The position numbers and the translations under genes were made by a program. From positions 7,166 through 71,165 of the forward strand of contig JAYQSB010000001.1 in the NCBI GenBank assembly GCA_038146705.1: DNA of 64,000 bases, read 5' to 3'. The stretch comes from Candidatus Poseidoniales archaeon. GTDB taxonomy: Archaea > Thermoplasmatota > Poseidoniia > Poseidoniales > Poseidoniaceae. Below, piece by piece: positions 3,422 to 43,539 of the stretch; position 1 is the first letter of the stretch, and every line of letters begins with the position of its first letter. The notes under the pieces were generated by a model. That model worked only from the letters and a program-made list of their open reading frames with translations. It was not told the origin of the DNA and ran no database searches.

Positions 3422-6400
3422 ATGACTCGACACAAAGCGGTTTTGCTCGTCGTATTGATGGTGACATCGATGTTGTCGACACATCTTTCAGTACCAAATC
3501 AAAGCATTTCTTTTGAACTCGATAGCGATTTTGAAATGGTTGAATTTGCAGTTTCAGCAGATACATTCAACGATTTTATCGGTCAAGAAGAAACATATGA
3601 CCTCATGGAAATCCGTGAACTTTCAGCGTCGAGTTCTATTGGCATATTCAACGCAAATGGTTTCTTTCCATCCCGACCAATTGCAGCAGATTGGCTGACA
3701 CCGAAGGATTTCAGTCTTATGGTGATCGTCGATGATGCTGTGAAAATGAAAGATGCGAGAAACTCAATTGATGCTTTTTATGGCATCGAGGTCAGAGAGT
3801 TCATTGCTCCATCTGGTCTTTTGGTACAGGGAACACACACCGCTTTGATGGAACTTATACATCAACCATACATTCATTCATATTCATCGGTCCCTCTCGC
3901 TCTTTTTCTCGATGATAGTCTTCTCGATGCAACCTTATTCACTGACGGTGAAGAGTATATTTCCGGGTTAGCACTACGAGTAGAATCTTGGCGTTATGAG
4001 GGGGGGATATCAGACGGCGTCGATATCGACGATGGTGTGGGAGGAACGGTCATTCAAAGTTTTGAGTCTATTACAAATCATCTCGTCGACATAGAGCACC
4101 GATGGGATGTCGGCAGGGTTGATGGATACATCGAAGCGAATAACCTCAAAACGCTGGCGAATCAACCTGCTGTACGAAGTATTGCTCTCGTTCCTGAATA
4201 CCATGTCTTTAACGACAATTCACGAAGTCATATGAGTGTGAATACAATGAAAACGTATTTCAACACAAATTTAGACGGCTCAAATCAAATCATCGCGGTT
4301 GCAGATGCTGGACTTGACGAAGACCACGGTGATTTTGGAACGAGAATCATCGGTTCATACGACGTCATAGGTGACGGATCAACAGCGGATAAGCATTCAG
4401 GTCATGGCACCCACGTTTCTTGCACCGTTCTTGGCGATGGTTTCCGTGGAGGATACGCTGGCGTAGCACCCGAGGCTGAATTGTATTTCCAAGCAATGGA
4501 AAACGACAACACAGGGAATTTTCAGTCGCCTTCACTCAATAGTTTGCTCGATGTTTCCTACAATGCAGGTGCTAGAATTCATACGAATTCATGGGGCTCT
4601 TCTCAGGCAAGTCAACAAGGAAAATACAATTCAGACACGGAGGATGTTGATGATAACACCAATTATTACGACAGGTACTATACCGGCCGTGAAGGACTTA
4701 CTGTGCTGTTTGCCAACGGTAATGACGGTCCCGGTTCTGGAACGATATCCCCTCCTGCGACGGCGAAAAATGCAATTTCGGTTGGTAGCCACATCAATCG
4801 CGGTCAAGCCTCTCCAAACACAATTGCAGATAGTTCATCGCGTGGTCCAACTGAAGACAATCGAATTAAACCGGATGTTCTCGCTCCGGGAGGATTCGTT
4901 CGTTCCTGCCTCGCTCAAGAAGCAACGGATACTGCAGGTGGCACAACTCAACCAGGTGGATGGTATATTCAGTACTCAGGTACATCGATGGCGACACCGA
5001 ATGCCGCTGGTGTGGCCTCAATGATACGTGAATATATCATCGAAATTGCACAGCGTCCCTCACCCCAAGGGGCCCTCGTAAAAGCACTCATGGTTCTTGG
5101 AGCACAAGATATTGGAAGTAAAAACATACCCAATAACGATGAAGGTTGGGGCCGAATCAATGTTCGAAATTCCCTTGCACCGTCAAACGGTCAAGGTATT
5201 TGGGTTGATGATCGCTCGGTCATGTCTGGGACTGGAAACTCAAAGTCGTATTCATTCAATATTTCACAAGCCAATGCAGAACTCAAAGTCGTTCTTGCTT
5301 GGTCGGATGAACGAGGTTCAAGATTCTCGAGCACCCAGCTCGTCAATAACCTCGATCTTGAAGTCACGAGCCCGGATGGCCAGACAACATATTACGGAAA
5401 CGATTTTTCTGGTGGCACATCTGTTGTTACTGGGACTCGAGATTCTATCAACAATCTCGAAGTGGTTTTGATTGAAAATGCTGTTCAAGGTGTTTGGACT
5501 GTTAAGGTCGTCGATACCTATCACGGAGGGTCAAAAATCCAACCTTATGCGGTTGCGGTACGAGGACATGGTGTGAATGACTTGCGCCCTGATATTACGG
5601 TCATTGCTGGCGATTTTGAAATGAGCACAGCGATTCCTCAAGTTGGTGAGGATGTCATCGTTTCTGTCCCATTTTTCAATTTAGGCAATGTGAAAGCAGA
5701 TACGTTCAATGTTGAATTCCAAGAAAATGGTGTCGAGATTGACGCAAAGAGTTTCGATCTTGGCCCGGGTTCAACAAAGGTCATTCAGTGGGACTGGGTC
5801 CCAACGACTGCAGGTGCAACCACACTTCGATTCATTATCGACCCACTTGAAGAACTGGAAGAAATCAATGAAGACAACAATGAATTTGATTTCGTCGTAA
5901 ATGTGACGACACCTGGAGTGAAATTAGAATCGTCAAATCAAGAGATTCTCATCACAAGTTCAAACCAATCAACGACAACATGGGAAATTGCTTTGACAAA
6001 TACAGCCTTGTTGGAAACGAATGCATCAGTAGAAACGGGCACCGTACATTTCGTTGATTCAACCATTGATTTAGGTTGGTATGTCGGAACAGGGGTGTCA
6101 AATTTTTCACTTAGTGGTCAAGAAAGTGTCGCACTGAATGTTACACTTGTTCATCCAAGTCCGCCCAGTCCGGGCCTATATGTCGTTGAATTGCTTGGGA
6201 TTGATGTCGATAATGGGGTGACATATCCATATGAGGTCCATCTCAGGGTTCCTGAAATTGCAAAGGCACGGCTTGAATTTGATTATCAAATCGTTCCTGT
6301 TCACCCAATCAATGAGACAAATATCACCGTTCGAATGTACAACGATGGTAATGCTCCGATAGGTTACGACCTTTTCCTTGAAGCACCTGCTGGATGGATC

Positions 6401-7996
6401 GCAGGATTTTCAGATTTAGGCAGCGAAGCAGGAGCAATTTCTGGTTCGACTGGACTTATTGACGCCGATAGTTATCGTGAGGTTTCACTCACATTTACGC
6501 CCCCACAAATCATGACCGCAGCCCAAGCAGAACGAACTGTGGTTCTTACTGCAATAAGTCAAACTGAACATCAAAAATATGTGGAATTTGAGATACCTAT
6601 TCGAGTTACAGCAATCAGGGACATACAAGTCCAATTGGAAACATCATTGGGCACGATACGTCCAGATTCGTCGGTTACGATGATGCTCAGCATCGAGAAT
6701 TCTGGGAATCAGGACCTGTATCTCCTACCATCCCTTGAGTTACCATCGGGTTGGACATCACAAACAACGCTTGAACCATTCACACTTGAATGGCAGGAAA
6801 CCAAAAACATCCTTTTTTCACTCAAGGCAAATATGAATGCCAAGTCGGGCCAAATACAATTGAATTTGGACAATGGTTCGACACGATTTATGTGGAATCA
6901 AGATGTGAATGTTGAAGCACTCCCACAACCAACGGTTGATTTTGTTTCACTCGAATATTCAGGGGAGGCGTATGAAACCCTTTCTGGAGCTGGTGCCCAA
7001 CCGAGTGGGGTCGAACTTGTCTACACTTGGATTCTCAGCAATACCGGGGAAACCAAATGGTATCCATCGACGCTCTTGAATCTCGATCAAAATTTGGTGG
7101 GTGATTGCGACCAAGTTGGTGAAATCGGTTTGAACGAGATAGTTCCCGTTAAGTGTCGAATACTCATTCGAAATGACGCTGAGCCGATGTCTCAGCCGTC
7201 GTTTACTGTAACGTTTTCAGATGAAAATGCGAGTGTTGTTCGTACGGTTGGCCTCGTAGTTGCACCGGTTGAAAGTTATTCTTGGACACTGAAATCCACA
7301 CCAGAATTTACAACAGGCGTCGAAGGGGCCATCGTTCTAGAAGTGGAAAACACAGGAAATGTCGCCCTACAGCGCCGAATCACGGTTGAGAGCGTTGAAG
7401 ATTGGGACATTTCAGTGGATGGTACGGATATTCTCGATCTTGAACCGGGCCAAGATGTTGTCGTGCGATTGAATGTAATATCTCACAAGCCAAGTACACG
7501 TGAAGTGACCTTTAAATTATCAGAAAGCGATGCAGATAGTCGCATTTTCCGAATTGATGTTGCATCGTTCGGTGAACCAGTTGGAAGTGGAGATGATGGG
7601 TTATCGTCATCGGTTATTGTCACAGGTATTTCTCTCCTCATTTTTGGCTTGCTTGCTGCTGCAGGTGCATTGGTGATGAAGCAACGACGTCAACCAAATC
7701 CACAACTTCCTCTACCGCCACTCGGAGCAGCCACTCCCGTTCCCCAAACGATGATGCCTCCACCAATTCAAAAAACGCAGCCTACGTCAGTCGTCGCAAC
7801 CCCGGCACCTGTTGCTCAAGCAGCGAAACCACTCGTCGTTTGCTGGTTGTGTCGTGACGGAATCGAGGGGCCGTCCCTTGCATGTGGCACTTGTGGAGCA
7901 AGGTATCACAACACAGATTCATGCAAACCCAAAGAGTCCGCAACATGTGAAAATTGTGACAACCTTTGTTCAAACTTTTTGCCCGTGATGTCGTGA
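3422..7996 (+). CDS. Membrane-anchored S8 subtilisin-like serine protease with CARDB-like modules and a Cys-rich cytoplasmic tail
   Basis: Asp/His/Ser triad motifs AVADAGLDEDHGDF, HGTHVSCTVLG and GTSMATPNAAGVASM. Signal-peptide-like start MTRHKAVLLVVLMVTSMLS at 3422; the longer ORF from 3245 overlaps the previous CDS. A P-domain-like segment follows the catalytic domain. CARDB-type end motif EINEDNNEFDFVVNV. Repeated x-N-[TDS]-G-N modules. TM helix VIVTGISLLIFGLLAAAGALVM near the C-terminus. Confidence 0.9.
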   Translation: MTRHKAVLLVVLMVTSMLSTHLSVPNQSISFELDSDFEMVEFAVSADTFNDFIGQEETYDLMEIRELSASSSIGIFNANGFFPSRPIAADWLTPKDFSLMVIVDDAVKMKDARNSIDAFYGIEVREFIAPSGLLVQGTHTALMELIHQPYIHSYSSVPLALFLDDSLLDATLFTDGEEYISGLALRVESWRYEGGISDGVDIDDGVGGTVIQSFESITNHLVDIEHRWDVGRVDGYIEANNLKTLANQPAVRSIALVPEYHVFNDNSRSHMSVNTMKTYFNTNLDGSNQIIAVADAGLDEDHGDFGTRIIGSYDVIGDGSTADKHSGHGTHVSCTVLGDGFRGGYAGVAPEAELYFQAMENDNTGNFQSPSLNSLLDVSYNAGARIHTNSWGSSQASQQGKYNSDTEDVDDNTNYYDRYYTGREGLTVLFANGNDGPGSGTISPPATAKNAISVGSHINRGQASPNTIADSSSRGPTEDNRIKPDVLAPGGFVRSCLAQEATDTAGGTTQPGGWYIQYSGTSMATPNAAGVASMIREYIIEIAQRPSPQGALVKALMVLGAQDIGSKNIPNNDEGWGRINVRNSLAPSNGQGIWVDDRSVMSGTGNSKSYSFNISQANAELKVVLAWSDERGSRFSSTQLVNNLDLEVTSPDGQTTYYGNDFSGGTSVVTGTRDSINNLEVVLIENAVQGVWTVKVVDTYHGGSKIQPYAVAVRGHGVNDLRPDITVIAGDFEMSTAIPQVGEDVIVSVPFFNLGNVKADTFNVEFQENGVEIDAKSFDLGPGSTKVIQWDWVPTTAGATTLRFIIDPLEELEEINEDNNEFDFVVNVTTPGVKLESSNQEILITSSNQSTTTWEIALTNTALLETNASVETGTVHFVDSTIDLGWYVGTGVSNFSLSGQESVALNVTLVHPSPPSPGLYVVELLGIDVDNGVTYPYEVHLRVPEIAKARLEFDYQIVPVHPINETNITVRMYNDGNAPIGYDLFLEAPAGWIAGFSDLGSEAGAISGSTGLIDADSYREVSLTFTPPQIMTAAQAERTVVLTAISQTEHQKYVEFEIPIRVTAIRDIQVQLETSLGTIRPDSSVTMMLSIENSGNQDLYLLPSLELPSGWTSQTTLEPFTLEWQETKNILFSLKANMNAKSGQIQLNLDNGSTRFMWNQDVNVEALPQPTVDFVSLEYSGEAYETLSGAGAQPSGVELVYTWILSNTGETKWYPSTLLNLDQNLVGDCDQVGEIGLNEIVPVKCRILIRNDAEPMSQPSFTVTFSDENASVVRTVGLVVAPVESYSWTLKSTPEFTTGVEGAIVLEVENTGNVALQRRITVESVEDWDISVDGTDILDLEPGQDVVVRLNVISHKPSTREVTFKLSESDADSRIFRIDVASFGEPVGSGDDGLSSSVIVTGISLLIFGLLAAAGALVMKQRRQPNPQLPLPPLGAATPVPQTMMPPPIQKTQPTSVVATPAPVAQAAKPLVVCWLCRDGIEGPSLACGTCGARYHNTDSCKPKESATCENCDNLCSNFLPVMS

Positions 7997-8062
7997 TAAT
8001 TCTTGCTCATTTTGAATCTGTTAAGGCGAGGCTTTTGATAGGAGAACCTTCACCCATTTTTC

Positions 8063-16442: not shown

Positions 16443-16718
16443 ATGGATATAGCAACCACAGTTGAATCTGCAGTCTTCTTTTTGTTTGCAACCATTACAA
16501 TTGTGGGTGCACTTGGTCTCATTTACGCCCAACGCGTTGCACATTCCATGCTTTCGCTCATCTTCTGTTTCATGGCAGTATCAGGAATATTCATCCTCAT
16601 GGGAGCAGAGTTCCTCGCCGCAATTCAAATTCTCGTGTACCTAGCGAGCGTTGGTCTTGTCGTTCTGTTCGGCATCATGCTGACAAGAAGACAAATCTTA
16701 GAGGAGGATTTTGAATGA
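16443..16718 (+). CDS. nuoJ: NADH-quinone oxidoreductase subunit J, N-terminal part (split NuoJ)
   Basis: MDIATTVESAVFFLFATITIVGALGLIY...EFLAAIQILVYLASVGLVVLFGIMLT is typical of the NuoJ N-terminal half. The ATG at 16443 follows the nuoI stop. The ORF-track start at 16281 lies inside nuoI. Confidence 0.8.
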   Translation: MDIATTVESAVFFLFATITIVGALGLIYAQRVAHSMLSLIFCFMAVSGIFILMGAEFLAAIQILVYLASVGLVVLFGIMLTRRQILEEDFE

Positions 16719-16984
16719 AATTCCTTTCCCTCATGACTCGAATGGGTCTTTTGGCTCTAGGTTTTATTCTCATCGCCACCGTTAGTGCTGATTCAGTTTG
16801 GCAAGAAGCAAGTGACGACGCGCCCACGACATCTGAATTAGCCGATGACCTTCTCAATGAATGGGGCTTACCTCTACTGGCACTCGGTATCTTGATGGCC
16901 GTTGCAATGATTGGTGCTGCCTACCTCGTACGAGATGAACGAATGGAAAATCTTCTTTGGGAATTTGGAGGTGAAGAAGAGTGA
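16715..16984 (+). CDS. nuoJ: NADH-quinone oxidoreductase subunit J, C-terminal part (split NuoJ)
   Basis: ATGA overlap with the previous ORF. C-terminal TM WGLPLLALGILMAVAMIGAAYLV resembles the last NuoJ helix. Confidence 0.65.
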   Translation: MKFLSLMTRMGLLALGFILIATVSADSVWQEASDDAPTTSELADDLLNEWGLPLLALGILMAVAMIGAAYLVRDERMENLLWEFGGEEE

Positions 16985-36020: not shown

Positions 36021-36497
36021 TCATCGCCCATCTGATTCATCGTTAGAATTTTTGACTGAACCTTGAAGAATTTTGAGGTGTGCAACCAAAGGTGAAAGCA
36101 ATCGTCCACACTGAATTCCATGACTGCTGAGTTGGTAATGGACTCGAATTGGAGGGCCATCATCGACAATCCTTTCCACAAGGCCTTCACTCATGAGGAA
36201 TTGCAATTTGTCAGACAGCGTTCGTGAGGAAATTCCGGAGAGAAGGACCTTCATTTCATTAAATCTCATCGTTTTTGCAATGTACAGAGTTGAGAGAATT
36301 TCAATTGTCCATCGAGAACCAAAGACATTCAACGCCTCGACAGCAGCTTGAACCTCCCATTCGACAGAGTGTTCAGCCCCTGTTGAATGACTTGCAAGTT
36401 CAGAGCGTATTTCTCTACCATTCTCGACGGTTTGCTTAATGAGTGTCTCAATCTTCTCAAATGATTGTTTTTGCAGAAAGAGAGGGGGCTCTGGCAT
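36021..36497 (-). CDS. HxlR-family transcriptional regulator
   Basis: FGSRWTIEILSTLYIAKTMRFNEMKVLLSGISSRTLSDKLQFLMSEGLVERIVDDGPPIRVHYQLSSHG is the HxlR signature. Confidence 0.85.
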   Translation of the reverse strand: MPEPPLFLQKQSFEKIETLIKQTVENGREIRSELASHSTGAEHSVEWEVQAAVEALNVFGSRWTIEILSTLYIAKTMRFNEMKVLLSGISSRTLSDKLQFLMSEGLVERIVDDGPPIRVHYQLSSHGIQCGRLLSPLVAHLKILQGSVKNSNDESDGR

Positions 36498-36620
36498 AGG
36501 AACATGTTGGCGTCATGTTCGGCTTATATGAGTGCTTTCATTAGTAAAGTAAGTGAAATCAACCCCAAATCGACCAACGATGTGTTTGATTCAAGTAGGA
36601 TAGCCTCTCCATTCTCATCG

Positions 36621-37772
36621 ATGAGCCGTCGCATTATGCTTATTCGCGGAGGTGCGATGAGTCGATTTTCCGGCCTCGGCAAAGGCTATCATGACATGCT
36701 CGAAGTTTTACAGAATGATGAAGTAGCAGGATGGAGACATAGCACCACTTTAGAATACGGATCAACATCTGAAATGTCTAGTGTAGCGAGATTACGACAT
36801 CGATGGTACTCTCACCCAAACCGAGTAAAAAAACAACTCAAAAACCCCATGGCCTCAGATATTGCTCTGATTACCGACCAAGAACAAAGTCACCTTGTAC
36901 CGTTGCATTCAAAAATCCCAGTTGGTATCTATGTGCACGATTTGTTTCATATTTTCCCAACGGTTGAAGATTTCCCAGAAGGGAAGGTAAGTATCGGGCA
37001 ACGTCAACCGAGTTTCATCCGTAAACGCGACCTTAAAAAATTGAAAAAGGGACTATCCCGAGCGGACTTTTTCTTTTGTAATTCTGAGGCTACTCACCGT
37101 TTTTGCCAACAATATTTTCCAAACACGCCAGCTTATGTCATTGCATTCCCTATGAATGTCCAAGAATATCAGTTTGAGGAAACTAAGAACAATTATCCTC
37201 TCCAATTTGATGATTCAAAGTGCAATCTTCTGGTCGTCGGAAGCAACGAACCACGAAAACGATTGAAATTTCTTGTCGAATGCTTGAGAAAAATTGAGTC
37301 AGAGATTCTTCAGGATATCGTCATTCATCACGTTGGGTCAAACATTTGTCCTGAAACTGGTTTTTCCATCGACGAAGAGTCAAAAAATGCTGGCATACAA
37401 TGGTTGTATCATAACGGACCAATCGATGAATCTTCTCTCAACAATATGCGATGGAATTCAGAAGTCTTGCTCTTCCCTTCTGCCGCAGAAGGTTTCGGTT
37501 ATCCTCCCCTTGAGGCCATGATGGCAGGTTTACCGGTCTTGTGCTCAAATTATGCAGCACACAATGAATTCGTACCCGATGAAATGTGCATTGATGGTAA
37601 AGATGTTTCATTGTGGGTCAAGCACATGAAGGATGTGCATCAAATATGGAAGCAACGAGATGGACCACGACAACCTTTACCTTTGGATTCGTCGATCATT
37701 GAACGATTTTCAAAAAACACGTATTGCACAACACTCTCCAATGCTTTGAACGAGGTCCTCAAAAATTCATAG
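36621..37772 (+). CDS. Glycosyltransferase, GT4/GT-B family
   Basis: C-terminal motif LLFPSAAEGFGYPPLEAMMAGLPVLCS. Start set at MSRRIMLIRGG because the ORF-track start 36465 overlaps the divergent HxlR gene. Exact start uncertain. Confidence 0.8.
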   Translation: MSRRIMLIRGGAMSRFSGLGKGYHDMLEVLQNDEVAGWRHSTTLEYGSTSEMSSVARLRHRWYSHPNRVKKQLKNPMASDIALITDQEQSHLVPLHSKIPVGIYVHDLFHIFPTVEDFPEGKVSIGQRQPSFIRKRDLKKLKKGLSRADFFFCNSEATHRFCQQYFPNTPAYVIAFPMNVQEYQFEETKNNYPLQFDDSKCNLLVVGSNEPRKRLKFLVECLRKIESEILQDIVIHHVGSNICPETGFSIDEESKNAGIQWLYHNGPIDESSLNNMRWNSEVLLFPSAAEGFGYPPLEAMMAGLPVLCSNYAAHNEFVPDEMCIDGKDVSLWVKHMKDVHQIWKQRDGPRQPLPLDSSIIERFSKNTYCTTLSNALNEVLKNS

Positions 37773-37810
37773 CCCTCACATTCTTGAAGTCTTTTTCATT
37801 CGGACAACCC

Positions 37811-39871
37811 ATGGAACCGATTCAAAGGGTTGCAATCATTGGTGCAGGAAACATGGGTTCTGGCATCGCACAAAAAACAGCACAAGAGGAATTTGACGTT
37901 GAAATGGTTGACAGAGAATCACAATGGGTTGAACGTGGCCAATCCATCATTTCTGATTTTTTGAACGAAGCGATTGAACGTCGAATCTTCCGACAAGAGC
38001 AGGTTGATGCAATCCAATCGAGAATTCATGGTGTTGTTGGTGTTGAACATACAAATAAAGACACTGATTTGGTTATTGAAGCAGTCTTCGAGGATTTTGA
38101 CATCAAAACTCAAGTGTTTGAAACACTGGATGGCGTATGTTCTCCTCACACAATCCTTGCATCGAATACATCGTCTCTTTCAGTTAATGAACTCGCTCAA
38201 GCAACGGGGCGTCCAGACCGATTTGTAGGCCTGCACTTCTTTTATCATCCAGCAAAAAACAGACTTGTTGAAGTCATACCTGCAAAAAGCACGTCAAAAG
38301 AAACACTCGACAGAGTCGTGCAGTATTGCAAAGGACTTGGCAAAGTTGTCATTACTTGTGCTGACCGTCCTGGTTTTGTTGTGAATCGATTTTTCGTACC
38401 ATGGTTGAATGAAGCTTGTTATCTTCTGGAGGAAGGCGTTGGAACTACAGCACAAATCGACGCAGTCGCTAGGAAAGCATTCCGGATTGGTCTAGGCCCC
38501 TTCGGTCTGATGAATTTAACGGGTCCACCGATCGCATTGCATTCAACCGATTATCTCGCTACTCAGTTGTCAACACCAAGATATACCGGCGCACAGAATT
38601 TGAGAGATTTGGTCGAAGGCCAACACATGTGGGATATTGGGCAGGACGAAACATACTCAGAAGAGCAGTATGCAGCAATCTCCGAACGTCTTCTTGGTGT
38701 TGTCTTTGGTGTTGCTGCACAAATTGTAGACGAAGGTGTTTGTTCAATTGAAGACGTTGACAGAGGTGCGAAGGTTGGACTTCGTTGGGCTCTTGGTCCA
38801 TTTGAACTGATGAATCGTCTTGGTGTTCAGCGTTCTCTTGATATGGCACATGCATATGGAAATGTAGCTAAACAGGGTTGGGTTGTACCCCAATTCTTCA
38901 TCGACCAAGGAGACCAACCTTGGCCGTTTACCTTTGTCGATACGACAATTGAAGGAGGAATTGCTACGCTCACCATCAATCGACCGGAAGCAATGAATGC
39001 TCTCAATGTTCAAGTGGTCGACCAACTTATGGAACAATTCAATGCAGTAGAATCCAATCCAGAGGTCCACACAGTTGTCCTTGATGGAGCAGGGAAGGCC
39101 TTTATTGCTGGTGCTGATGTCAAATTCTTCGTTGACAAAATTCGTTCAGATGATTTCCAAGACATTTACGATTTTACCGCAAATGGACACGATGTTCTCA
39201 ATGCCTTTGAAAACTCCGAGAAAACAACAATTGCTCTCACAACAGGACTCGCTCTTGGAGGGGGGCTTGAACTTGCCATGGCATGTGATTACAGAATTGG
39301 CACTCGAAAAACCCAATTTAGATTCCCTGAAACGAGCATTGGAATTTACCCCGGCTTAGGTGGCACTCAACGTCCAGCACGCTTGTGTGGCAAAGCAGTC
39401 GCAAGATGGGCTGTGCTCGCAGGTAATTTCATGGATGCACAAACAGCGTACGATGTGGGATTACTCACACATCTCGTCGAGGTTTCAGATGTCAGTTCTT
39501 GCATCAAATCGATTCAAGGGAAGCCAGAATCAAAGTATCAAGGAAAACCGAATAACCCCGAATCCAGAGTTGTTCAGTTTGCACAGTCCTTCTATTCGGA
39601 TGAAAATATGGAATCCTTGCTCAACCATCAATGCCCTGAAGGTTTTGATGAAGCCGATAAAATTGTGACAAGGCAGATGAAATCATTGAAGTTCACTGCT
39701 CCGGTTGGCCTAAAAATGGCCCACGATCTCATCAATACTTCATCATCCCCTTTACACGAAGGACTCGCTTCTGAATTGAATGGACTTGAGAAAATATTCT
39801 CGACCAACGATGCGTTGGAAGGCTTATCTGCTTTGATTGAGGGACGAAAGCCAACATATGTTGGCAACTGA
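37811..39871 (+). CDS. Bifunctional 3-hydroxyacyl-CoA dehydrogenase (N-terminal) / enoyl-CoA hydratase (C-terminal)
   Basis: VAIIGAGNMGSGIAQ Rossmann motif plus a HCDH C-terminal domain, followed by crotonase motifs INRPEAMNALN and GAGKAFIAGADV. This dehydrogenase-first order is, as I recall, the one described for archaeal fusions. Start at the MEPIQRV ATG, 37811. Confidence 0.88.
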   Translation: MEPIQRVAIIGAGNMGSGIAQKTAQEEFDVEMVDRESQWVERGQSIISDFLNEAIERRIFRQEQVDAIQSRIHGVVGVEHTNKDTDLVIEAVFEDFDIKTQVFETLDGVCSPHTILASNTSSLSVNELAQATGRPDRFVGLHFFYHPAKNRLVEVIPAKSTSKETLDRVVQYCKGLGKVVITCADRPGFVVNRFFVPWLNEACYLLEEGVGTTAQIDAVARKAFRIGLGPFGLMNLTGPPIALHSTDYLATQLSTPRYTGAQNLRDLVEGQHMWDIGQDETYSEEQYAAISERLLGVVFGVAAQIVDEGVCSIEDVDRGAKVGLRWALGPFELMNRLGVQRSLDMAHAYGNVAKQGWVVPQFFIDQGDQPWPFTFVDTTIEGGIATLTINRPEAMNALNVQVVDQLMEQFNAVESNPEVHTVVLDGAGKAFIAGADVKFFVDKIRSDDFQDIYDFTANGHDVLNAFENSEKTTIALTTGLALGGGLELAMACDYRIGTRKTQFRFPETSIGIYPGLGGTQRPARLCGKAVARWAVLAGNFMDAQTAYDVGLLTHLVEVSDVSSCIKSIQGKPESKYQGKPNNPESRVVQFAQSFYSDENMESLLNHQCPEGFDEADKIVTRQMKSLKFTAPVGLKMAHDLINTSSSPLHEGLASELNGLEKIFSTNDALEGLSALIEGRKPTYVGN

Positions 39872-40414
39872 GTCTTGTTGCTCAAAAACAATTTTTCGAG
39901 TATCATACCATCCGCTCCACGGTTCAGTTTCCTCTTCAGACCAATACTGAAGAGGGGCCTGGTTTGAAATAGATTTTTCATGCTCGACTTCTAACAATGA
40001 CGAGTTTTGTGTGGATTTGATGCCTTGTTTCCCGAGCACATATGCATGTTGGAGCAACAATGTAGAGAATGCTAAACTGTTTTTATCTGTCGTACTCCAA
40101 TATGTGTCCATTCTTGGATGGGTGTGAACCCATAACTTGAATGGAATTTTTGCTCCCACGGGTTGTCGTAAATGCACACTTCCAGGAAGGCCCCAATCGA
40201 TGAAGACTCGGTCATTAGCATCGATGAGTACTGAGGTCTCAAGGCAGGCAAAATATGACAGAATGTAAACGCAATCCCATCGGTCATGTAGAGCACAGCA
40301 TTCCTGCACAGCGAGTAAAATTTCATCTTCGACATTTTTTTCTGTAGCTTGTTCCAAAGCATACATCCAATCTATGTCACGGATGCCAATCTCGACGAGT
40401 CCTGGAGGAATCAT
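39824..40414 (-). CDS. JAB/MPN (JAMM) metalloprotease-like protein
   Basis: HTHPRMDTYWSTTD fits H-x-H-x7-S-x2-D, with an upstream Glu in LLAVQE. The start overlaps the E1-like stop (ATGA). The 3' end overlaps the convergent HCDH/ECH gene by 48 nt. Confidence 0.75.
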   Translation of the reverse strand: MIPPGLVEIGIRDIDWMYALEQATEKNVEDEILLAVQECCALHDRWDCVYILSYFACLETSVLIDANDRVFIDWGLPGSVHLRQPVGAKIPFKLWVHTHPRMDTYWSTTDKNSLAFSTLLLQHAYVLGKQGIKSTQNSSLLEVEHEKSISNQAPLQYWSEEETEPWSGWYDTRKIVFEQQDSVANICWLSSLNQSR

Positions 40415-41073
40415 TGGCTCACCACTGGGAATTGAAAGGAACCTGAAGTGATGCTTCCCATGCTTTCATGAGGTCCTGAACATCCACGTAAATGTTGAAG
40501 AGCCCACTGAGAACCATAAGCTGCAGAAATAAGAAAACCGAATTCGATATTTCCAATATCGAGTGCACCTTCGAGTTGACAACTTTTTGGTGGGTGGTCT
40601 GGCGTCATTGCTTCAACCAATTTTTTGTCAGTTTGGTAGGTGAGAACCATGAATCCGTCGCCGCTGCATCGTAAATCAATCCATGGGACATCTTGTTGAT
40701 GGACTATACGACGTGGTTCAGGGCGATCAACGGCAACGATGATAAAATCATACCCAATCAATTGTTCTTCATCAATCAAATCATCTTCAATGCCGATCAC
40801 GTTGACCTGTGAACCCTCATCGTTGTATCTCTCTTGAAGAATGCTGACTTTGGTTTGACCCACATCTGTTGTTTGAAATCGTTGATGGCCAAGATTGGTT
40901 GATGAGACGATATCACCATCCATGACATGGATATTGCATGGAATTTGTAGAGCATGACAAGCCCTGTACAATGCATCGACAACATTACTCCCTATACCTC
41001 CACATCCAACAATGAGAACACTCCTTTTCAGCACCATACAGGTGTTGTTGTTCCAGTGGATATAAACCATCAC
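40411..41073 (-). CDS. ThiF/MoeB/E1-like adenylyltransferase (minimal, 220 aa)
   Basis: VLIVGCGGIGSNVVDAL, DGDIVSSTNLGHQRF, DVGQTKV and AVDRPEPRR motifs of the E1-like Rossmann superfamily. No CxxC pairs. Confidence 0.8.
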   Translation of the reverse strand: MMVYIHWNNNTCMVLKRSVLIVGCGGIGSNVVDALYRACHALQIPCNIHVMDGDIVSSTNLGHQRFQTTDVGQTKVSILQERYNDEGSQVNVIGIEDDLIDEEQLIGYDFIIVAVDRPEPRRIVHQQDVPWIDLRCSGDGFMVLTYQTDKKLVEAMTPDHPPKSCQLEGALDIGNIEFGFLISAAYGSQWALQHLRGCSGPHESMGSITSGSFQFPVVSQ

Positions 41074-42377
41074 GATTGTAGTTGCTCATTCAACAATCTC
41101 GAAAGTTGTATGGCTTCATGGTCGAGTGAAAAATGAGCATCGACAAATGCCCGACCAGATTTCAAACAATGTTCTCTATGTTCAATCGTTTGAGCACGTT
41201 CAAGTCCAGCATGCCAACTTTCCACATCGTTTCTTTCGAACAAGAATGACTCGTCAAGCATACTCATCGTTTCTACAAAGCCACCATCGCGAACCATGAC
41301 AGGTGGAACTCCAATTGACAGCGCTTCGATTGGGGTGAGCCCAAAGGGCTCGCCGTGCGCATGCGATATCACAGCAATTGACTCACGAACGACCCCACAA
41401 ATCTGCTGTTGAGTCAATCGTGGCATACAAGACACCTCCACACCAATTGTTTTTGCGAAATGCGTCAATTCCTCTTGATCAGATTCATTTCCGCCTCCAA
41501 TGTGCACGAGGGCGATATTGGTATTCTCTAACATGGCCACACTCTCCATCGTTCCTTTCACAAAGGATATTTTGCCAATTGTCACAACATATTTCTCAGG
41601 TAAATTCAATTTCGCCGTAACCATTTGTTCATCACTTGATGATTCAATTGGCCATTTTTCAAGGTCAATTGCGTGGTGTAGAATGGTGCTTTGAAGTGGT
41701 CTTTTCTGCCCGTCTCTTTGGGGAGGTAGCCCATTTTCTTTCGTGCATGGTTGAGCAAATTTGTAGATACTTGTTAATCGATTTGCTGTGAATTGTGAAT
41801 TGCCTGAGAGCGTCGAATTTGGCCGAGCAAGCAACATTCGGACAAATCGTTGATCATCTTTTCTCTGTTTTCTAAAAGCTAGATTTGTGATGAGTGAAGG
41901 ACGCTTCATTGAACCATCAATCCTTCGATGGAGGACATCTTCATACAACCAACGCGGCGGTTCAAGGCAATGATAGTGAACAGGAATGTGAGCAGGTACA
42001 CAAGGTAAAATTTCGAGTGTGCCTCGACAGACTGAGAGGTGAACGACATCGATAGACCCCCAGGGGATATCCATATGTTTCCATAATTGAACAGCCTGTT
42101 TCGAAGCAACATTCCTCACTTCTGAAATTGTATTGAGTCGGGGATTGTATGTGGTTTTGCTTTTGTACACATCCACAGTTGTTGTCTCCAGAAGTTGCTG
42201 GGCGTCCTCGGGAAATGATAAGGTCGCAAGAGAGACCTTCCAGTGATTCTCTAGTTTTGGAATGAGTTGCAGAAGCTCTCTCTCTGCCCCTCCAAGCGTT
42301 GCAAACGAACCACGAACGACTAGAACATGTCGTTGGGATTCACTTCCATTGCCCATGTTTTGCGGTAGAAGGTTCAA
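41070..42377 (-). CDS. Glycosyltransferase, GT4/GT-B family
   Basis: N-terminal GSFATLGGAERELL and C-terminal HGEPFGLTPIEALSIGVPPVMVRDGG motifs. Stop lies inside the GTGATG start region of the E1-like gene. Confidence 0.85.
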   Translation of the reverse strand: MNLLPQNMGNGSESQRHVLVVRGSFATLGGAERELLQLIPKLENHWKVSLATLSFPEDAQQLLETTTVDVYKSKTTYNPRLNTISEVRNVASKQAVQLWKHMDIPWGSIDVVHLSVCRGTLEILPCVPAHIPVHYHCLEPPRWLYEDVLHRRIDGSMKRPSLITNLAFRKQRKDDQRFVRMLLARPNSTLSGNSQFTANRLTSIYKFAQPCTKENGLPPQRDGQKRPLQSTILHHAIDLEKWPIESSSDEQMVTAKLNLPEKYVVTIGKISFVKGTMESVAMLENTNIALVHIGGGNESDQEELTHFAKTIGVEVSCMPRLTQQQICGVVRESIAVISHAHGEPFGLTPIEALSIGVPPVMVRDGGFVETMSMLDESFLFERNDVESWHAGLERAQTIEHREHCLKSGRAFVDAHFSLDHEAIQLSRLLNEQLQS

Positions 42378-42474: not shown

Positions 42475-43539
42475 ATGTCCGCTAAGAAAGCCATCATTAC
42501 CGGCATTACCGGTCAAGATGGTTCGTATCTTGCAGAGCTTCTGCTCGAGAAAGGATACATCGTTTACGGCCTTGTCCGTCGAGTTTCGCAACCAACCAGT
42601 GGTCGCAGCCTCATCAATCACTTGATTGAAGACGAAAAGTTTCACTTGTTTAATGGCGACCTCGCTGACCAAAACTCCATTGATAATGCGGTGAAAGAAA
42701 TACAACCAGATGAATTTTACAACTTGGGTGCAATGTCCTTTGTTCCTGAATCTTGGCGTTCACCGATGATGACAGCTGATATCACCGGATTAGGTGCATT
42801 ACGATGTCTTGAGGCTATTCGAAAGAATGCTCCTGAATGCCGTTTTTACCAAGCAGGCTCATCCGAGCAATTCGGCAAAGTTCACGAAGTACCACAAACA
42901 GAGGCAACTCCATTCCATCCTCGTTCACCGTACGGATGTGCCAAAGTTTTCGCCTTTGAAATAACACGAAATTATCGCGAGTCATACAACATGTTTGCTT
43001 GCACTGGTATTTTGTTTAACCACGAGAGCCCACGTCGAGGCCTTGAATTTGTGACAAGAAAAGTAACGATGACCGCTGCTCGAATTGCAAAAGGTATCGA
43101 TGAATTCCTCATGATTGGCAATGTTGATGCAAAACGTGATTGGGGTTATGCTGGAGATTATGTTGAGATGCAGTGGAGAATGTTGCAACAGGACGAACCA
43201 GGAGATTTTGTTGTCGCAACAGGTCGAACGCATAGTGTACGTGACATGATTACACTCGCATTCAGCCATGTTGGGCTTGAACTTGTTTGGTCTGGCGAGG
43301 GAGTTCAAACGATTGCAACCGACCAAAACGGCGTCGTTCGAGTGAAAACAAATCCGAAATTTTTCCGCCCTGCAGAGGTAGACCTTCTCATCGGTGACCC
43401 TGCTCTTGCCCAAGAAAAGCTCAACTGGGTACCCCAAACTTCGTTCGAGGAACTGATTCAAATGATGGTCGAGTCTGACATGAACATCGTGCAAGAGGCT
43501 ATTGATGGTGGCTATGCACCTCCAACACCTCCTGAGTGA
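42475..43539 (+). CDS. gmd: GDP-mannose 4,6-dehydratase
   Basis: KKAIITGITGQDGSYLAELLLEKGYIVYGLVRR, SPYGCAKV and LFNHESPRRG motifs. ATG at 42475 is preceded by GGGTGGGAGAGG. The ORF-track start 42262 overlaps the divergent GT. Confidence 0.93.
   Translation: MSAKKAIITGITGQDGSYLAELLLEKGYIVYGLVRRVSQPTSGRSLINHLIEDEKFHLFNGDLADQNSIDNAVKEIQPDEFYNLGAMSFVPESWRSPMMTADITGLGALRCLEAIRKNAPECRFYQAGSSEQFGKVHEVPQTEATPFHPRSPYGCAKVFAFEITRNYRESYNMFACTGILFNHESPRRGLEFVTRKVTMTAARIAKGIDEFLMIGNVDAKRDWGYAGDYVEMQWRMLQQDEPGDFVVATGRTHSVRDMITLAFSHVGLELVWSGEGVQTIATDQNGVVRVKTNPKFFRPAEVDLLIGDPALAQEKLNWVPQTSFEELIQMMVESDMNIVQEAIDGGYAPPTPPE

What the first reader, a model, noticed from the sequence alone, without database searches (positions are those of the whole stretch)
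39824..42377. Translationally coupled glycosyltransferase / minimal E1-like / JAB operon with no visible Ubl or E2
Three minus-strand genes are chained.
- The GT4 stop TGA (41070..41072) sits inside the GTGATG start of a 220-aa ThiF/MoeB/E1-like protein. That protein carries GCGGIGS, DGDIVSSTNLGHQRF, DVGQTKV and AVDRPEPRR.
- The E1-like stop overlaps, as ATGA at 40411..40414, the start of a 196-aa JAB/MPN protein. That protein has an intact JAMM motif, HTHPRMDTYWSTTD.

E1+JAB pairs are the hallmark of prokaryotic ubiquitin-like conjugation and deconjugation modules. Examples are archaeal SAMP/UbaA/JAMM1, CysO-Mec, type II CBASS Cap2/Cap3 and Bil-type systems. This locus differs in several ways:
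- No beta-grasp protein ending in GG and no E2 is encoded in the operon.
- The E1 lacks the CxxC zinc pairs and the rhodanese domain of MoeB/UbaA.
- The coupled partner is a glycosyltransferase, in a sugar-nucleotide locus with gmd divergent at 42475 and another GT4 at 36621.

The JAB 3' end also overlaps the convergent HCDH/ECH gene by 48 nt. This could be a new adenylation/peptidase module acting on a glycan-linked or glycoprotein substrate, or a defence-type conjugation system whose target is encoded in trans.
Basis: partly seen in the sequence, partly recalled or inferred. Interest (0 to 1): 0.7.

Follow-up and report, generated by a model that had tools for sequence, protein, structure and literature searches.

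The report
Archaeal E1–JAB pair shared with viruses
Two overlapping genes in a marine group II archaeon encode a stripped-down ubiquitin-type activating enzyme and a matching peptidase; they belong to a previously undescribed family whose relatives, including abundant ocean viruses of these archaea, also carry the small ubiquitin-like protein that is missing here.

Summary
Three chained minus-strand genes encode a GT4 glycosyltransferase, a 220-aa ThiF/E1-like protein and a 196-aa protein with an intact JAMM motif. The window contains no ubiquitin-like protein (Ubl) and no E2.

The glycosyltransferase link is not conserved. Among 76 classifiable loci, the gene upstream of E1 is the GT4 in 46, the tRNA enzyme Taw1 in 19 and nothing on the same strand in 11.

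The conserved core in Poseidoniaceae (marine group II archaea) is E1, JAB and a 76–80 aa four-helix protein that I call X. The window's clade has lost X, yet E1 and JAB stay under strong purifying selection (dN/dS about 0.05–0.15).

The JAB family is tiny: 148 representatives among 1.84 billion proteins. It also occurs as E1::JAB fusions and in 333 IMG/VR viral contigs that look like magroviruses. In those elements, in the viruses, and on one contig (L183) of a second lineage whose longer relative (L182) has a cellular context, a roughly 70-aa protein ending in GG plus 0–2 variable residues accompanies E1 and JAB.

Best reading: this is a lineage-specific, SAMP-like Ubl activation and trimming or deconjugation module whose Ubl is encoded in trans. 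It is a new variant of a known kind. Its biological role is unknown.

The parts
40411..41073 (-). Minimal E1-like (ThiF-family) adenylyltransferase, 220 aa. It has GxGGIG, D52/D54, K75, D116 and an invariant Cys165 in the family-specific motif TPDHxPxSCQ. The canonical Arg of NLxRQ is replaced by an invariant His63. It has no CxxC pair and no rhodanese domain.
   Evidence: Pfam ThiF E = 1.8e-18. Family invariants come from 31 sequences. A profile search against PDB hits MccB (1.5e-12), Uba1, Uba6, Uba4, NAE, Cap2, MoeB, ThiF and TcdA, but only over the Rossmann half. dN/dS is 0.08–0.15.
39824..40414 (-). Divergent JAMM/MPN+ (JAB) metallopeptidase, 196 aa, with catalytic motif E59 ... H97-x-H99-x7-S107-x2-D110. 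Its start overlaps the E1 stop as ATGA.
   Evidence: Invariant columns. AF2 pLDDT 91.7. Foldseek top hits in PDB are Rpn11, CSN5 and BRCC36, all weak. Viral JAB-like proteins in BFVD match. All PDB profile hits are JAMM enzymes. dN/dS is 0.05–0.17.
39824..39871 (-). A 16-codon C-terminal tail of the JAB that exists only in the window's clade. It is exactly the 48 nt that overlap the conserved 3' end of the convergent HCDH/ECH gene. It is most likely read-through left by the deletion that removed gene X.
   Evidence: The alignment shows the tail only in the window, P0002 and P0003. pLDDT there is 50–56. X is present in 70 of 76 loci and absent only from the window and L006–L010.
41070..42377 (-). 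GT4-family glycosyltransferase, 435 aa, whose stop overlaps the E1 start. It is a lineage-specific upstream neighbour and not part of the conserved module.
   Evidence: Pfam Glycos_transf_1 E = 2.5e-15. It lies upstream of E1 in 46 of 76 loci, is replaced by Taw1 in 19 and is absent in 11.
37724..39871 (+). Convergent fused 3-hydroxyacyl-CoA dehydrogenase / enoyl-CoA hydratase gene. It is a conserved syntenic neighbour that marks where gene X would lie in relatives.
   Evidence: Pfam 3HCDH_N E = 2.4e-56 and ECH E = 1.8e-45. Synteny holds in 80 genome loci and about 65 metagenome loci.

Best explanation
**What it is.** The two coupled genes are the chromosomal Poseidoniaceae branch of a distinct, previously uncharacterised Ubl-handling family. 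That family is so far seen only in marine group II-type archaea, in related unclassified elements, and in magrovirus-like viral contigs.

**Full component set elsewhere.**
- A roughly 70-aa protein ending in ...P-A/S/G-x-V/Q-G-G plus 0–2 variable residues, which I read as a ThiS/MoaD/SAMP-like Ubl.
- The minimal E1.
- The JAB peptidase.
- In the cellular-type lineages, a 76–80 aa four-helix acidic protein X.

**Proposed mechanism (inferred, not shown).**
1. The JAB trims the residues that follow GG. It probably also cleaves Ubl conjugates, as HvJAMM1, Mec+ and QbsD do.
2. The E1 adenylates the exposed Gly carboxylate.
3. Using the invariant Cys165, the E1 probably forms a thioester or acyl-persulfide.
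4. From that intermediate the Ubl goes to protein lysines without an E2 (as in archaeal SAMPylation by UbaA), or it carries sulfur.

**In this window.** Only E1 and JAB remain. The Ubl must be supplied in trans, and X has been lost by a deletion that made the JAB run into the convergent HCDH/ECH gene. The glycosyltransferase is a lineage-specific neighbour, co-oriented and probably co-transcribed, not a component.
For: **Shown.**
- E1 is in the ThiF family and JAB carries invariant JAMM residues.
- E1 and JAB are adjacent, with an overlapping stop/start, in essentially every locus of 80 species-level genomes and about 65 metagenome contigs.
- They are fused into one 405–407 aa polypeptide in P0382 and P0390 and their relatives L173–L181.
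- A 71–75 aa ORF ending in ...LQGG-H or ...LVGG-SC lies immediately upstream of the fusions. Homologues are found in L173–L181 and L183 at HMM E values of 1e-10 to 1e-25.
- L183 carries Ubl, two genes, then E1, JAB, X, a 238-aa gene and RNR. L183 itself has no diagnostic cellular gene besides RNR. Its relative L182 has the same E1-JAB-X, a homologous 242-aa gene and RNR, in a cellular context with an aminotransferase, YbjN and a GNAT.
- 333 IMG/VR contigs encode the viral branch of the JAB. Of 83 viral-type loci examined, 78 also carry the E1 and 54 carry the Ubl homologue. The Ubl C-terminus is GG plus nothing, NL, SL, CY, SY and so on.
- The window E1 and the viral E1 share the family-specific C-terminal half, including SCQ and GAQW: 27% identity, E = 2e-17.
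- Purifying selection continues in the clade that lacks X.

**Inferred.**
- The beta-grasp nature of the Ubl rests on its size, its GG end with a variable tail, its gene context, and an hhalign match to ThiS/MoaD/SAMP2/TtuB.
- Unlinked Ubl genes are normal in archaea: in Haloferax, ubaA, the samp genes and jamm1 are unlinked (own knowledge).
Against: - No Ubl of this family was found in the window or in any of 85 cellular Poseidoniaceae loci, each covering up to about 10 kb either side of the JAB gene. I could not scan whole Poseidoniaceae genomes, so a host Ubl is assumed and not shown.
- The Ubl candidate has no match in Pfam or PDB sequences. Its structure could not be predicted here because of tool restrictions.
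- The E1 lacks the canonical Arg of the NLxRQ motif: it is His in cells and Tyr in viruses. Its adenylation chemistry may therefore differ.
- JAB similarity to solved JAMM structures is weak (E = 0.025–0.1).
- The role of X is unknown. Its loss in the window's clade shows that the module can change composition.
- No target, and no choice between sulfur transfer and protein conjugation, can be read from the sequences.
Confidence: 0.55

Rival explanations
1. Biosynthetic sulfur-carrier system rather than a protein modifier. The E1 activates a ThiS/MoaD-like carrier for thiocarboxylate formation, feeding a cofactor or a tRNA modification. The JAB only matures the carrier, as in CysO/Mec+ or QbsCDE.
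For: - The GG plus 1–2 residue tail that needs JAB trimming is the hallmark of CysO and QbsE-type carriers (own knowledge; tails seen).
- In 19 Poseidoniaceae loci the E1 directly follows the tRNA wyosine enzyme Taw1, often with overlapping stop and start, and Dus is a conserved neighbour.
- Second- and third-ranked NCBIfam hits, after PRTRC_ThiF, are ThiS adenylyltransferases.
Against: - No rhodanese domain, cysteine desulfurase, or sulfur-accepting enzyme (MoaE, ThiG, NcsA, CysM) is linked in any locus inspected.
- Taw1 chemistry needs no sulfur carrier, and the Taw1 adjacency is clade-specific.
- It is hard to see why about 95-kb viruses would carry a cofactor sulfur carrier together with a deconjugating-type peptidase.
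Confidence: 0.15
2. Host-virus conflict module. The chromosomal E1-JAB(-X), which has no Ubl of its own, acts on the magrovirus-encoded Ubl. It could strip or mis-direct viral Ubl conjugates as a form of defence. Alternatively, the virus carries its own E1/JAB/Ubl copies to override the host system.
For: - Complementary gene content. The group-A-like viral loci have Ubl, E1 and JAB but no X. Host loci have E1, JAB and X but no Ubl within the sequence fetched, up to about 10 kb either side of the JAB gene.
- The family is essentially confined to these hosts, related elements and their viruses: 148 representatives among 1.84 billion proteins.
- Bacterial E1/JAB/Ubl systems (Bil, CBASS Cap2/Cap3) act in phage conflict (own knowledge).
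Against: - The host pair sits in a fixed syntenic position among housekeeping genes, with uniform GC and vertical-looking divergence. It is not in a variable island.
- Host and viral proteins are only 25–40% identical, so cross-recognition is uncertain.
- L183, whose relative L182 has a cellular context, carries its own Ubl.
Confidence: 0.12
3. Non-Ubl substrate. The E1 works like MccB, PaaA or RiPP-type ThiF enzymes on the C-terminus of a peptide or of protein X (invariant ...W-A/V end), with the JAB as the processing peptidase.
For: - The best PDB relative of the E1 profile is MccB.
- X is translationally coupled to the JAB and has a nearly invariant Trp near its C-terminus.
- ThiF-like enzymes are known to form indolylamide, thiolactone and phosphoramidate links in RiPPs (PMC12150305 and PMC12250964 abstracts).
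Against: - X is a gapless, well-conserved four-helix protein without a hypervariable core.
- In L183, L182 and the fusion loci its end is W plus 1–6 residues.
- X coexists with the Ubl in L183.
- X is absent from the window's clade, where E1 and JAB remain under selection, and absent from the viruses.
Confidence: 0.08
4. One reading: an adenylation/peptidase module functionally tied to the glycosyltransferase and acting on a glycan-linked or glycoprotein substrate.
For: - The GT4 stop and the E1 start overlap in the window and in L007–L009.
- GT4 is the upstream same-strand gene in 46 of 76 loci.
- gmd and a second GT4 are nearby.
Against: - 30 of 76 loci have no GT4 upstream (Taw1 in 19, nothing in 11).
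- L006, the nearest relative, lacks the GT.
- Taw1-type loci have neither GT4a nor GT4b.
- Viral, fusion and RNR-type relatives have no GT at all.
Confidence: 0.05

Closest known systems
Archaeal SAMP / UbaA / HvJAMM1 system (Haloferax volcanii)
   Same: An archaeal E1-like enzyme and a JAMM peptidase act on small GG-terminated Ubls without any E2 or E3. The Ubl genes are unlinked from the E1 and JAMM genes. A conserved E1 cysteine is present.
   Different: - The E1 here is not a UbaA orthologue: NCBIfam NF047750 gives 28 bits against a cut-off of 450.
- It is shorter (220 aa), lacks CxxC zinc sites, and has His in place of the NLxRQ Arg.
- E1 and JAB are translationally coupled or fused.
- An extra helical protein X belongs to the module.
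- Pfam does not recognise the JAB.
- The family is shared with viruses.
CysO-Mec+ (Mycobacterium) and QbsC/QbsD/QbsE (Pseudomonas) sulfur-carrier systems
   Same: An E1-like adenylyltransferase is paired with a JAMM peptidase that removes residues following the GG of a small carrier. Relatives of this module have GG plus 1–2 variable residues.
   Different: No linked sulfur-accepting biosynthetic enzyme or rhodanese domain. The host is archaeal or viral. No Ubl is encoded in the window.
Type II CBASS Cap2/Cap3 and Bil/Bub bacterial ubiquitination-like defence operons
   Same: E1 plus JAB gene pairing. PADLOC Cap2-type 'E1-E2' profiles hit the Rossmann half (E = 2e-11). BubCD appears among the weak fold matches of the JAB.
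   Different: No E2 domain or gene, no CD-NTase or other effector, no defence-island context, and a conserved chromosomal position.
PRTRC-system ThiF proteins (TIGR03736) of bacterial mobile elements
   Same: This is the best NCBIfam match to the E1 (E = 2.3e-17). It is also a minimal ThiF of about 245 aa that works in a cassette with Ubl-system-like proteins (own knowledge).
   Different: The score of 63 bits is far below the 144.75-bit cut-off. No ParB or other PRTRC genes are present. The lineage is archaeal.
MccB (microcin C7 synthetase)
   Same: This is the best solved-structure relative of the E1 profile (E = 1.5e-12). It is an E1-like enzyme that adenylates a peptide C-terminus.
   Different: The similarity is limited to the Rossmann half. 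There is no MccA-like heptapeptide gene and no N-terminal peptide-clamp domain.

Membership tests
ThiF/MoeB/E1 superfamily (Pfam PF00899) | Profile match above Pfam's gathering score | tested here: met
   67.0 bits against a cut-off of 28.1, E = 1.8e-18, residues 16–182.
ThiF/MoeB/E1 superfamily (Pfam PF00899) | Nucleotide-binding GxGxxG loop, acidic residue after beta-2, phosphate-binding Lys, and Mg-binding Asp | tested here: met
   G23-x-G25-G26-I-G28, D52/D54, K75 and D116 are invariant in 31 family members. They align with MccB.
ThiF/MoeB/E1 superfamily (Pfam PF00899) | Conserved Arg of the (S)NLxRQ motif | tested here: not met
   The motif reads N60-L61-G-H63-Q64, with an invariant His aligned to the Arg of MccB 'NLTRQ'. 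The viral branch has NVPYQ.
MoeB/UbaA-type E1 (housekeeping) | Two CxxC zinc pairs, with or without a rhodanese domain; orthologue-level profile score | tested here: not met
   The sequence has no CxxC pair and no rhodanese domain. NCBIfam gives UbaA 28 bits against 450, MoeB 24–28 bits against 266–449, and ThiF 47.5 bits against 275.
E1 enzymes that form a covalent intermediate | Catalytic cysteine after the adenylation core | tested here: inconclusive
   Cys165 (TPDHxPxSCQ) is invariant in the cellular members aligned. By sequence inspection it is also present in the one viral E1 and both fusion proteins examined. Positional equivalence to UbaA, ThiF or Uba1 cysteines could not be established.
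JAMM/MPN+ metallopeptidases (Pfam PF01398 / PF14464) | E ... H-x-H-x7-S-x2-D zinc and catalytic motif | tested here: met
   E59, H97, H99, S107 and D110 are invariant in 40 sequences. PDB profile hits align AMSH-LP 'WIHTHPtqtaFlSsvD'.
JAMM/MPN+ metallopeptidases (Pfam PF01398 / PF14464) | Profile match above the gathering score | tested here: not met
   Prok-JAB gives 13.4 bits against a cut-off of 25, E = 0.072. More distant family members reach 20–23 bits.
JAMM/MPN+ metallopeptidases (Pfam PF01398 / PF14464) | MPN fold | tested here: inconclusive
   The AF2 model has pLDDT 91.7. Top PDB matches are Rpn11, CSN5, BRCC36 and BubCD, followed by cytidine deaminases, at E = 0.025–0.3 and TM about 0.3. 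BFVD hits include proteins named JAB, MPN or deubiquitinase at probability 0.9 or higher.
Complete prokaryotic Ubl conjugation module (Ubl + E1 + JAB) | A small GG-terminated beta-grasp protein encoded with the enzymes | tested here: not met
   None is present in the window or in 85 cellular Poseidoniaceae loci. The feature is met in relatives: the fusion loci, L183 and viral contigs.
Type II CBASS (Cap2/Cap3) and Bil/Bub defence systems | E2 domain or gene, plus a CD-NTase and effector or a Ubl, in the same operon | tested here: not met
   PADLOC hits cover only part of the E1 domain of the E1-E2 profiles, and nothing hits the JAB or the neighbouring genes. Neighbours are GT4, gmd and HCDH/ECH.
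GT4 glycosyltransferases | Glycos_transf_1 C-terminal domain above the gathering score | tested here: met
   56.9 bits against a cut-off of 26.4. No NCBIfam equivalog is reached.

The most novel reading that the evidence does not exclude
Marine group II archaea and their magroviruses share, and perhaps contest, a private ubiquitin-like pathway. In this picture the viruses bring their own Ubl, E1 and JAB. The Poseidoniaceae chromosome keeps only E1, JAB and the helical protein X (only E1 and JAB in this window) and has no Ubl of its own. The host enzymes would then act on the viral Ubl, either as a countermeasure or as machinery the virus exploits. This would be the first virus-host conflict over a Ubl system in archaea, in one of the most abundant host-virus pairs in the surface ocean.
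Probability: 0.12. Interest if true: 0.85.

Novelty: new variant of a known kind. Interest (0 to 1): 0.6.

Why it matters
[quoted passage not shown] Their magroviruses have been proposed to rank third in abundance among marine planktonic viruses (PMC10160649). Neither has been cultured.

This work defines a compact Ubl, E1, JAB and X system that standard profiles mostly miss: the JAB, X and the Ubl have no Pfam hit. The system is shared by hosts and viruses. The papers I could search only mention a 'MoeB/ThiF' auxiliary gene in archaeal viruses (PMC8276007). The founding magrovirus paper mentions no ThiF, JAB or ubiquitin.

If the Ubl is conjugated to proteins, this would be a virus-encoded SAMPylation-like system. 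It would also be a new minimal model for E2-independent Ubl conjugation. It gives concrete, clonable parts for biochemistry: a 220-aa E1, a 180–196 aa JAB and a 66–72 aa Ubl.

For genome annotation, it shows that the glycosyltransferase adjacency should not be read as a functional link.

Tried and rejected
1. **The JAB's C-terminal tail (..NICWLSSLNQSR) as a fused remnant of X (..SCWV).** Rejected. The X HMM does not hit it. The tail is exactly the 48 nt antisense to the conserved HCDH/ECH 3' end, so its conservation is explained by that gene. pLDDT there is 50–56.
2. **X as a disguised Ubl.** Rejected. AF2 gives four helices and no strands (pLDDT 71.8), and there is no fold match.
3. **X as a ribbon-helix-helix or HTH regulator.** Pfam gives no support. 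The idea stays open but has no evidence.
4. **A Ubl inside the window or the cellular loci.** A regex scan for GG-ending ORFs, tblastn and an HMM search all found nothing. Recurrent GG-ending ORFs were antisense artefacts of the GST gene.
5. **An IMG/VR scan with the cellular JAB profile found nothing.** A tblastn of the viral JAB against the GenBank phage collection also found nothing. Only the viral-type alignment A3 recovered the 333 viral contigs.
6. **A literature link between magroviruses and ubiquitin, ThiF or JAB.** None was found apart from one sentence on MoeB/ThiF auxiliary genes.
7. **Rfam and tRNA scans of the window were empty.**
8. **Pfam on genes linked to the Ubl and E1 in L086, L090, L182 and L183.** No E2 or other informative domain was found.
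9. **The L010 E1 was extracted out of frame in the dN/dS script.** Those pairs are ignored.

Full report
**1. The observation**

The ORF list and the reverse-complement sequence show three chained minus-strand ORFs at the stated coordinates:
- GT4 at 41070..42377
- an E1-like gene at 40411..41073
- a JAB-like gene at 39824..40414

The GT stop TGA lies inside the GTGATG that starts the E1 ORF. The E1 stop and the JAB start overlap as ATGA. The JAB runs 48 nt into the convergent 3HCDH/ECH gene, which ends at 39871. Every quoted motif is present.

Profile results:
- Pfam confirms the GT (Glycos_transf_1, 2.5e-15) and the E1 (ThiF, 1.8e-18).
- It also confirms the neighbours: gmd, a second GT4, HCDH/ECH, HxlR and further HTH proteins, and GST.
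- The JAB fails all four profile libraries and the PDB sequence search. Pfam Prok-JAB gives E = 0.072, and NCBIfam, PADLOC and PHROGs give nothing.

**2. Is the third protein a JAB?**

An alignment of 40 homologues has E59, H97, H99, S107 and D110 invariant. Together they form the JAMM signature E...HxHx7SxxD.
- The AlphaFold model is confident, with pLDDT 91.7.
- Its best PDB neighbours are Rpn11, CSN5, BRCC36 and BubCD, followed by cytidine deaminases (the related fold). The scores are weak: E = 0.025, TM about 0.3.
- A profile search of PDB returns only JAMM enzymes (AMSH-LP, STAMBP, Rpn11-like, Sst2), aligned at the motif, with E about 0.1.
- Against predicted viral structures, the top hits reach E = 5.6e-9, and several are named JAB, MPN or deubiquitinase.

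I accept it as a very divergent JAMM peptidase. Family membership at the profile level is not met. The catalytic motif is met.

**3. The E1**

Family invariants are GxGGIG, D52/D54, K75, D116-R-P-x-P-R-R and a family-specific C-terminal half with TPDHxPxSC165Q.
- The canonical Arg of NLxRQ is an invariant His.
- There is no CxxC pair and no rhodanese domain.
- NCBIfam's best hit is the PRTRC ThiF (63 bits against a cut-off of 145). UbaA, MoeB and ThiF are far below their cut-offs.
- The profile hits MccB, Uba1, Uba6, Uba4, NAE, Cap2, MoeB, ThiF and TcdA in PDB, but only over the Rossmann half.

It is an E1-superfamily member outside every characterised clade.

**4. Who has it, and with what**

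All close homologues come from marine group II archaea, Candidatus Poseidoniales/Poseidoniaceae. 161 species-level GTDB genomes encode a JAB relative.

In 80 of these loci, and in about 65 metagenome loci, E1 and JAB are always adjacent.

They are followed in 70 of 76 loci by a small gene that I call X:
- X is 76–80 aa and aligns without gaps.
- Its conserved pattern (90% or more of 71 sequences) is RxP.D..E..KA..G..AV.NR, and it usually ends in W-A or W-V.
- It has no Pfam hit.
- It is predicted as four helices, with pLDDT 71.8 and no fold match.

The gene upstream of E1 varies:

| Upstream of E1 | Loci (including the window) |
|---|---|
| GT4, same strand | 46 |
| Taw1 (radical-SAM wyosine enzyme), same strand | 19 |
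| Only the divergent gmd | 11 |

The nearest relative, L006 (94% JAB identity), lacks the GT. The GT is therefore a lineage-specific neighbour.

The window and L006–L010 form the only clade without X. In that clade the JAB is 16 codons longer, and those codons are exactly the overlap with HCDH/ECH. I read this as a deletion of X plus the spacer, followed by read-through.

E1 and JAB in this clade remain under purifying selection: dN/dS is 0.08–0.15 for E1 and 0.05–0.17 for JAB. GC content is uniform across the region.

**5. The wider family supplies the missing Ubl**

A profile search of 1.84 billion representatives finds only 148 JAB relatives. Three groups stand out.

*E1::JAB fusions.* P0382 and P0390 are single polypeptides of 405–407 aa.
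- Their loci have, immediately upstream, a 71–75 aa ORF ending in ...VPSLQGG-H or ...RPLVGG-SC.
- Downstream lies an 85–86 aa acidic ORF with a Trp near its end.
- A metagenome scan finds more of these, L173–L181, all with the upstream GG protein at HMM E values of 1e-10 to 1e-25.

*A second lineage.* L182 and L183 have E1, JAB, a true X (HMM E = 1e-15 to 1e-18), a roughly 240-aa protein and a class II RNR.
- L182 also carries an aminotransferase, YbjN and a GNAT, so it looks cellular.
- L183 additionally carries the GG protein (...LTPGLVGG-VQ) two genes upstream.

*A viral branch.* These are more distant JABs, many of which end in EEE.
- The alignment A3 recovers 333 IMG/VR contigs, many of them 92–97 kb long.
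- In 83 viral-type loci the gene order is: Ubl, then 1–8 kb, then v389, a TFB-like gene, an optional MazG-like gene, E1, an optional 345-aa protein, JAB, further genes, and a thermosome subunit.
- Counts are JAB 83, thermosome 82, E1 78 and Ubl 54.
- A genome of about 90 kb with a thermosome gene in the replicative block matches group A magroviruses (PMC5434244; PMC10160649).
- The viral Ubl family reads MIKLRILNETGHTEL..SEVIEQI..HPTHWVFIDGEMV.RE.I.EINWD.V.SVDLTPAIVGG. It ends with nothing further or with two variable residues such as NL, SL, CY or SY.
- It has no match in Pfam or PDB sequences.

Pairwise identities link the groups:

| Comparison | Identity | E-value |
|---|---|---|
| Window E1 vs viral E1 (includes the SCQ/GAQW half) | 27% | 2e-17 |
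| Window E1 vs fusion P0390 | 37% | 3e-37 |
| Window JAB vs viral JAB | 37% over the core | 1e-15 |

**6. Mechanism**

A GG end followed by a short variable tail, an E1 and a JAMM peptidase together make up the classical set for a trim, adenylate and transfer cycle. CysO/Mec+, QbsE/QbsD and SAMP/UbaA/HvJAMM1 all work this way.

The invariant Cys165 makes a covalent E1 intermediate plausible. No E2 is seen in any branch, as in archaeal SAMPylation.

I therefore propose that the window's pair activates, and trims or deconjugates, a Ubl encoded in trans. The adjacency, the fusions, the co-occurrence with the GG protein and the purifying selection are shown. The beta-grasp fold, the chemistry, the targets, and the choice between protein conjugation and sulfur transfer are inferred or unknown.

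The HMM of the Ubl family finds nothing in the window or in 85 cellular Poseidoniaceae loci. Unlinked Ubl genes are usual in archaea (own knowledge).

**7. Rivals**
- A purely biosynthetic sulfur-carrier role. The Taw1 and Dus neighbourhood and the ThiF-like hits favour it. No linked sulfur enzyme was found.
- A host-virus conflict in which host enzymes meet the viral Ubl. The complementary gene content favours it. The syntenic housekeeping context and the Ubl on L183 argue against it.
- A non-Ubl peptide or X as the substrate. The MccB affinity favours it. X is dispensable here and coexists with the Ubl elsewhere.

**8. Comparison with known systems, and novelty**

The module works most like SAMP/UbaA/HvJAMM1 or CysO/Mec+. 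It is not a member of those families: orthologue-level scores, CxxC sites, the NLxRQ Arg and the Pfam JAB threshold all fail.

It is not CBASS, Bil, Bub or PRTRC either, since it has no E2, no effector and no ParB.

I found no description of this family or of a magrovirus Ubl-E1-JAB set. One paper notes MoeB/ThiF as a prevalent auxiliary gene of archaeal viruses (PMC8276007).

I rate it a new variant of a known kind with moderately high interest. The interest lies mainly in the family uncovered, not in the window's reduced two-gene version.

Noticed in passing
L090:274-498, 5813-6373, 7425-8024; L093–L172 (IMG/VR contigs): Magrovirus-like contigs of about 92–97 kb carry a full Ubl (GG plus 0–2 residues), a minimal E1 and a JAB, next to a TFB-like gene and the thermosome gene. 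The magrovirus papers I could search do not mention this set.
   Followed up: partly
P0404, P0407, P0412, P0420, P0425, P0443, P0453 (viral JABs); L090:8143-8418 (91-aa ORF): Many viral-branch JAB proteins and a neighbouring 91-aa protein end in a C-terminal ...EEE tail. The thermosome homologue ends in ...VEE. The recurring acidic C-terminal tag is unexplained.
   Followed up: no
L001–L003:6338-7342, L062, L064, L066, L070, L072 and others: In a second group of Poseidoniaceae, the radical-SAM wyosine enzyme Taw1 occupies the GT4 position. Its stop often overlaps the E1 start. The E1-JAB-X cassette is thus appended to different upstream genes in different clades.
   Followed up: partly
P0150, P0152, P0154, P0159 (E1 homologues of 351–360 aa): Some Poseidoniaceae E1 homologues carry an N-terminal extension of about 140 aa (MPFGNYKEISLN...) of unknown nature. 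It could be a real domain or a mis-called start.
   Followed up: no
L006:829-1072: The closest relative of the window (94% JAB identity) lacks the GT4 gene and retains only fragments of gmd directly upstream of E1. This could be a recent deletion or an assembly artefact.
   Followed up: no
L182:9998-15917 and L183:4391-10553: A second lineage has E1, JAB, X, a conserved protein of about 240 aa with no Pfam hit, and a class II ribonucleotide reductase. In L183, the Ubl and two unknown proteins (379 and 232 aa) sit upstream. L182 carries cellular genes (aminotransferase, YbjN, GNAT); L183 has none besides RNR. Their taxon is undetermined.
   Followed up: partly
L090:6386-7423 and homologues in 55 viral loci: In many viral loci a lysine/glutamate-rich protein of about 345 aa with no Pfam hit is inserted between E1 and JAB. 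It may be an additional component or a target.
   Followed up: no
window 16715-16981 (+): An 89-aa predicted membrane protein next to respiratory-complex-like genes ends in ...EFGGEEE. It was noted only because of the GG/EEE ending. It does not resemble the Ubl family.
   Followed up: no
window 36465-37772 (+) and 41070-42377 (-): Both GT4 genes give sub-threshold or marginal hits to Pfam GT4-conflict (PF20706): 31.4 and 16.4 bits against a cut-off of 26. The second GT4 is also lineage-specific and is absent from Taw1-type loci.
   Followed up: no
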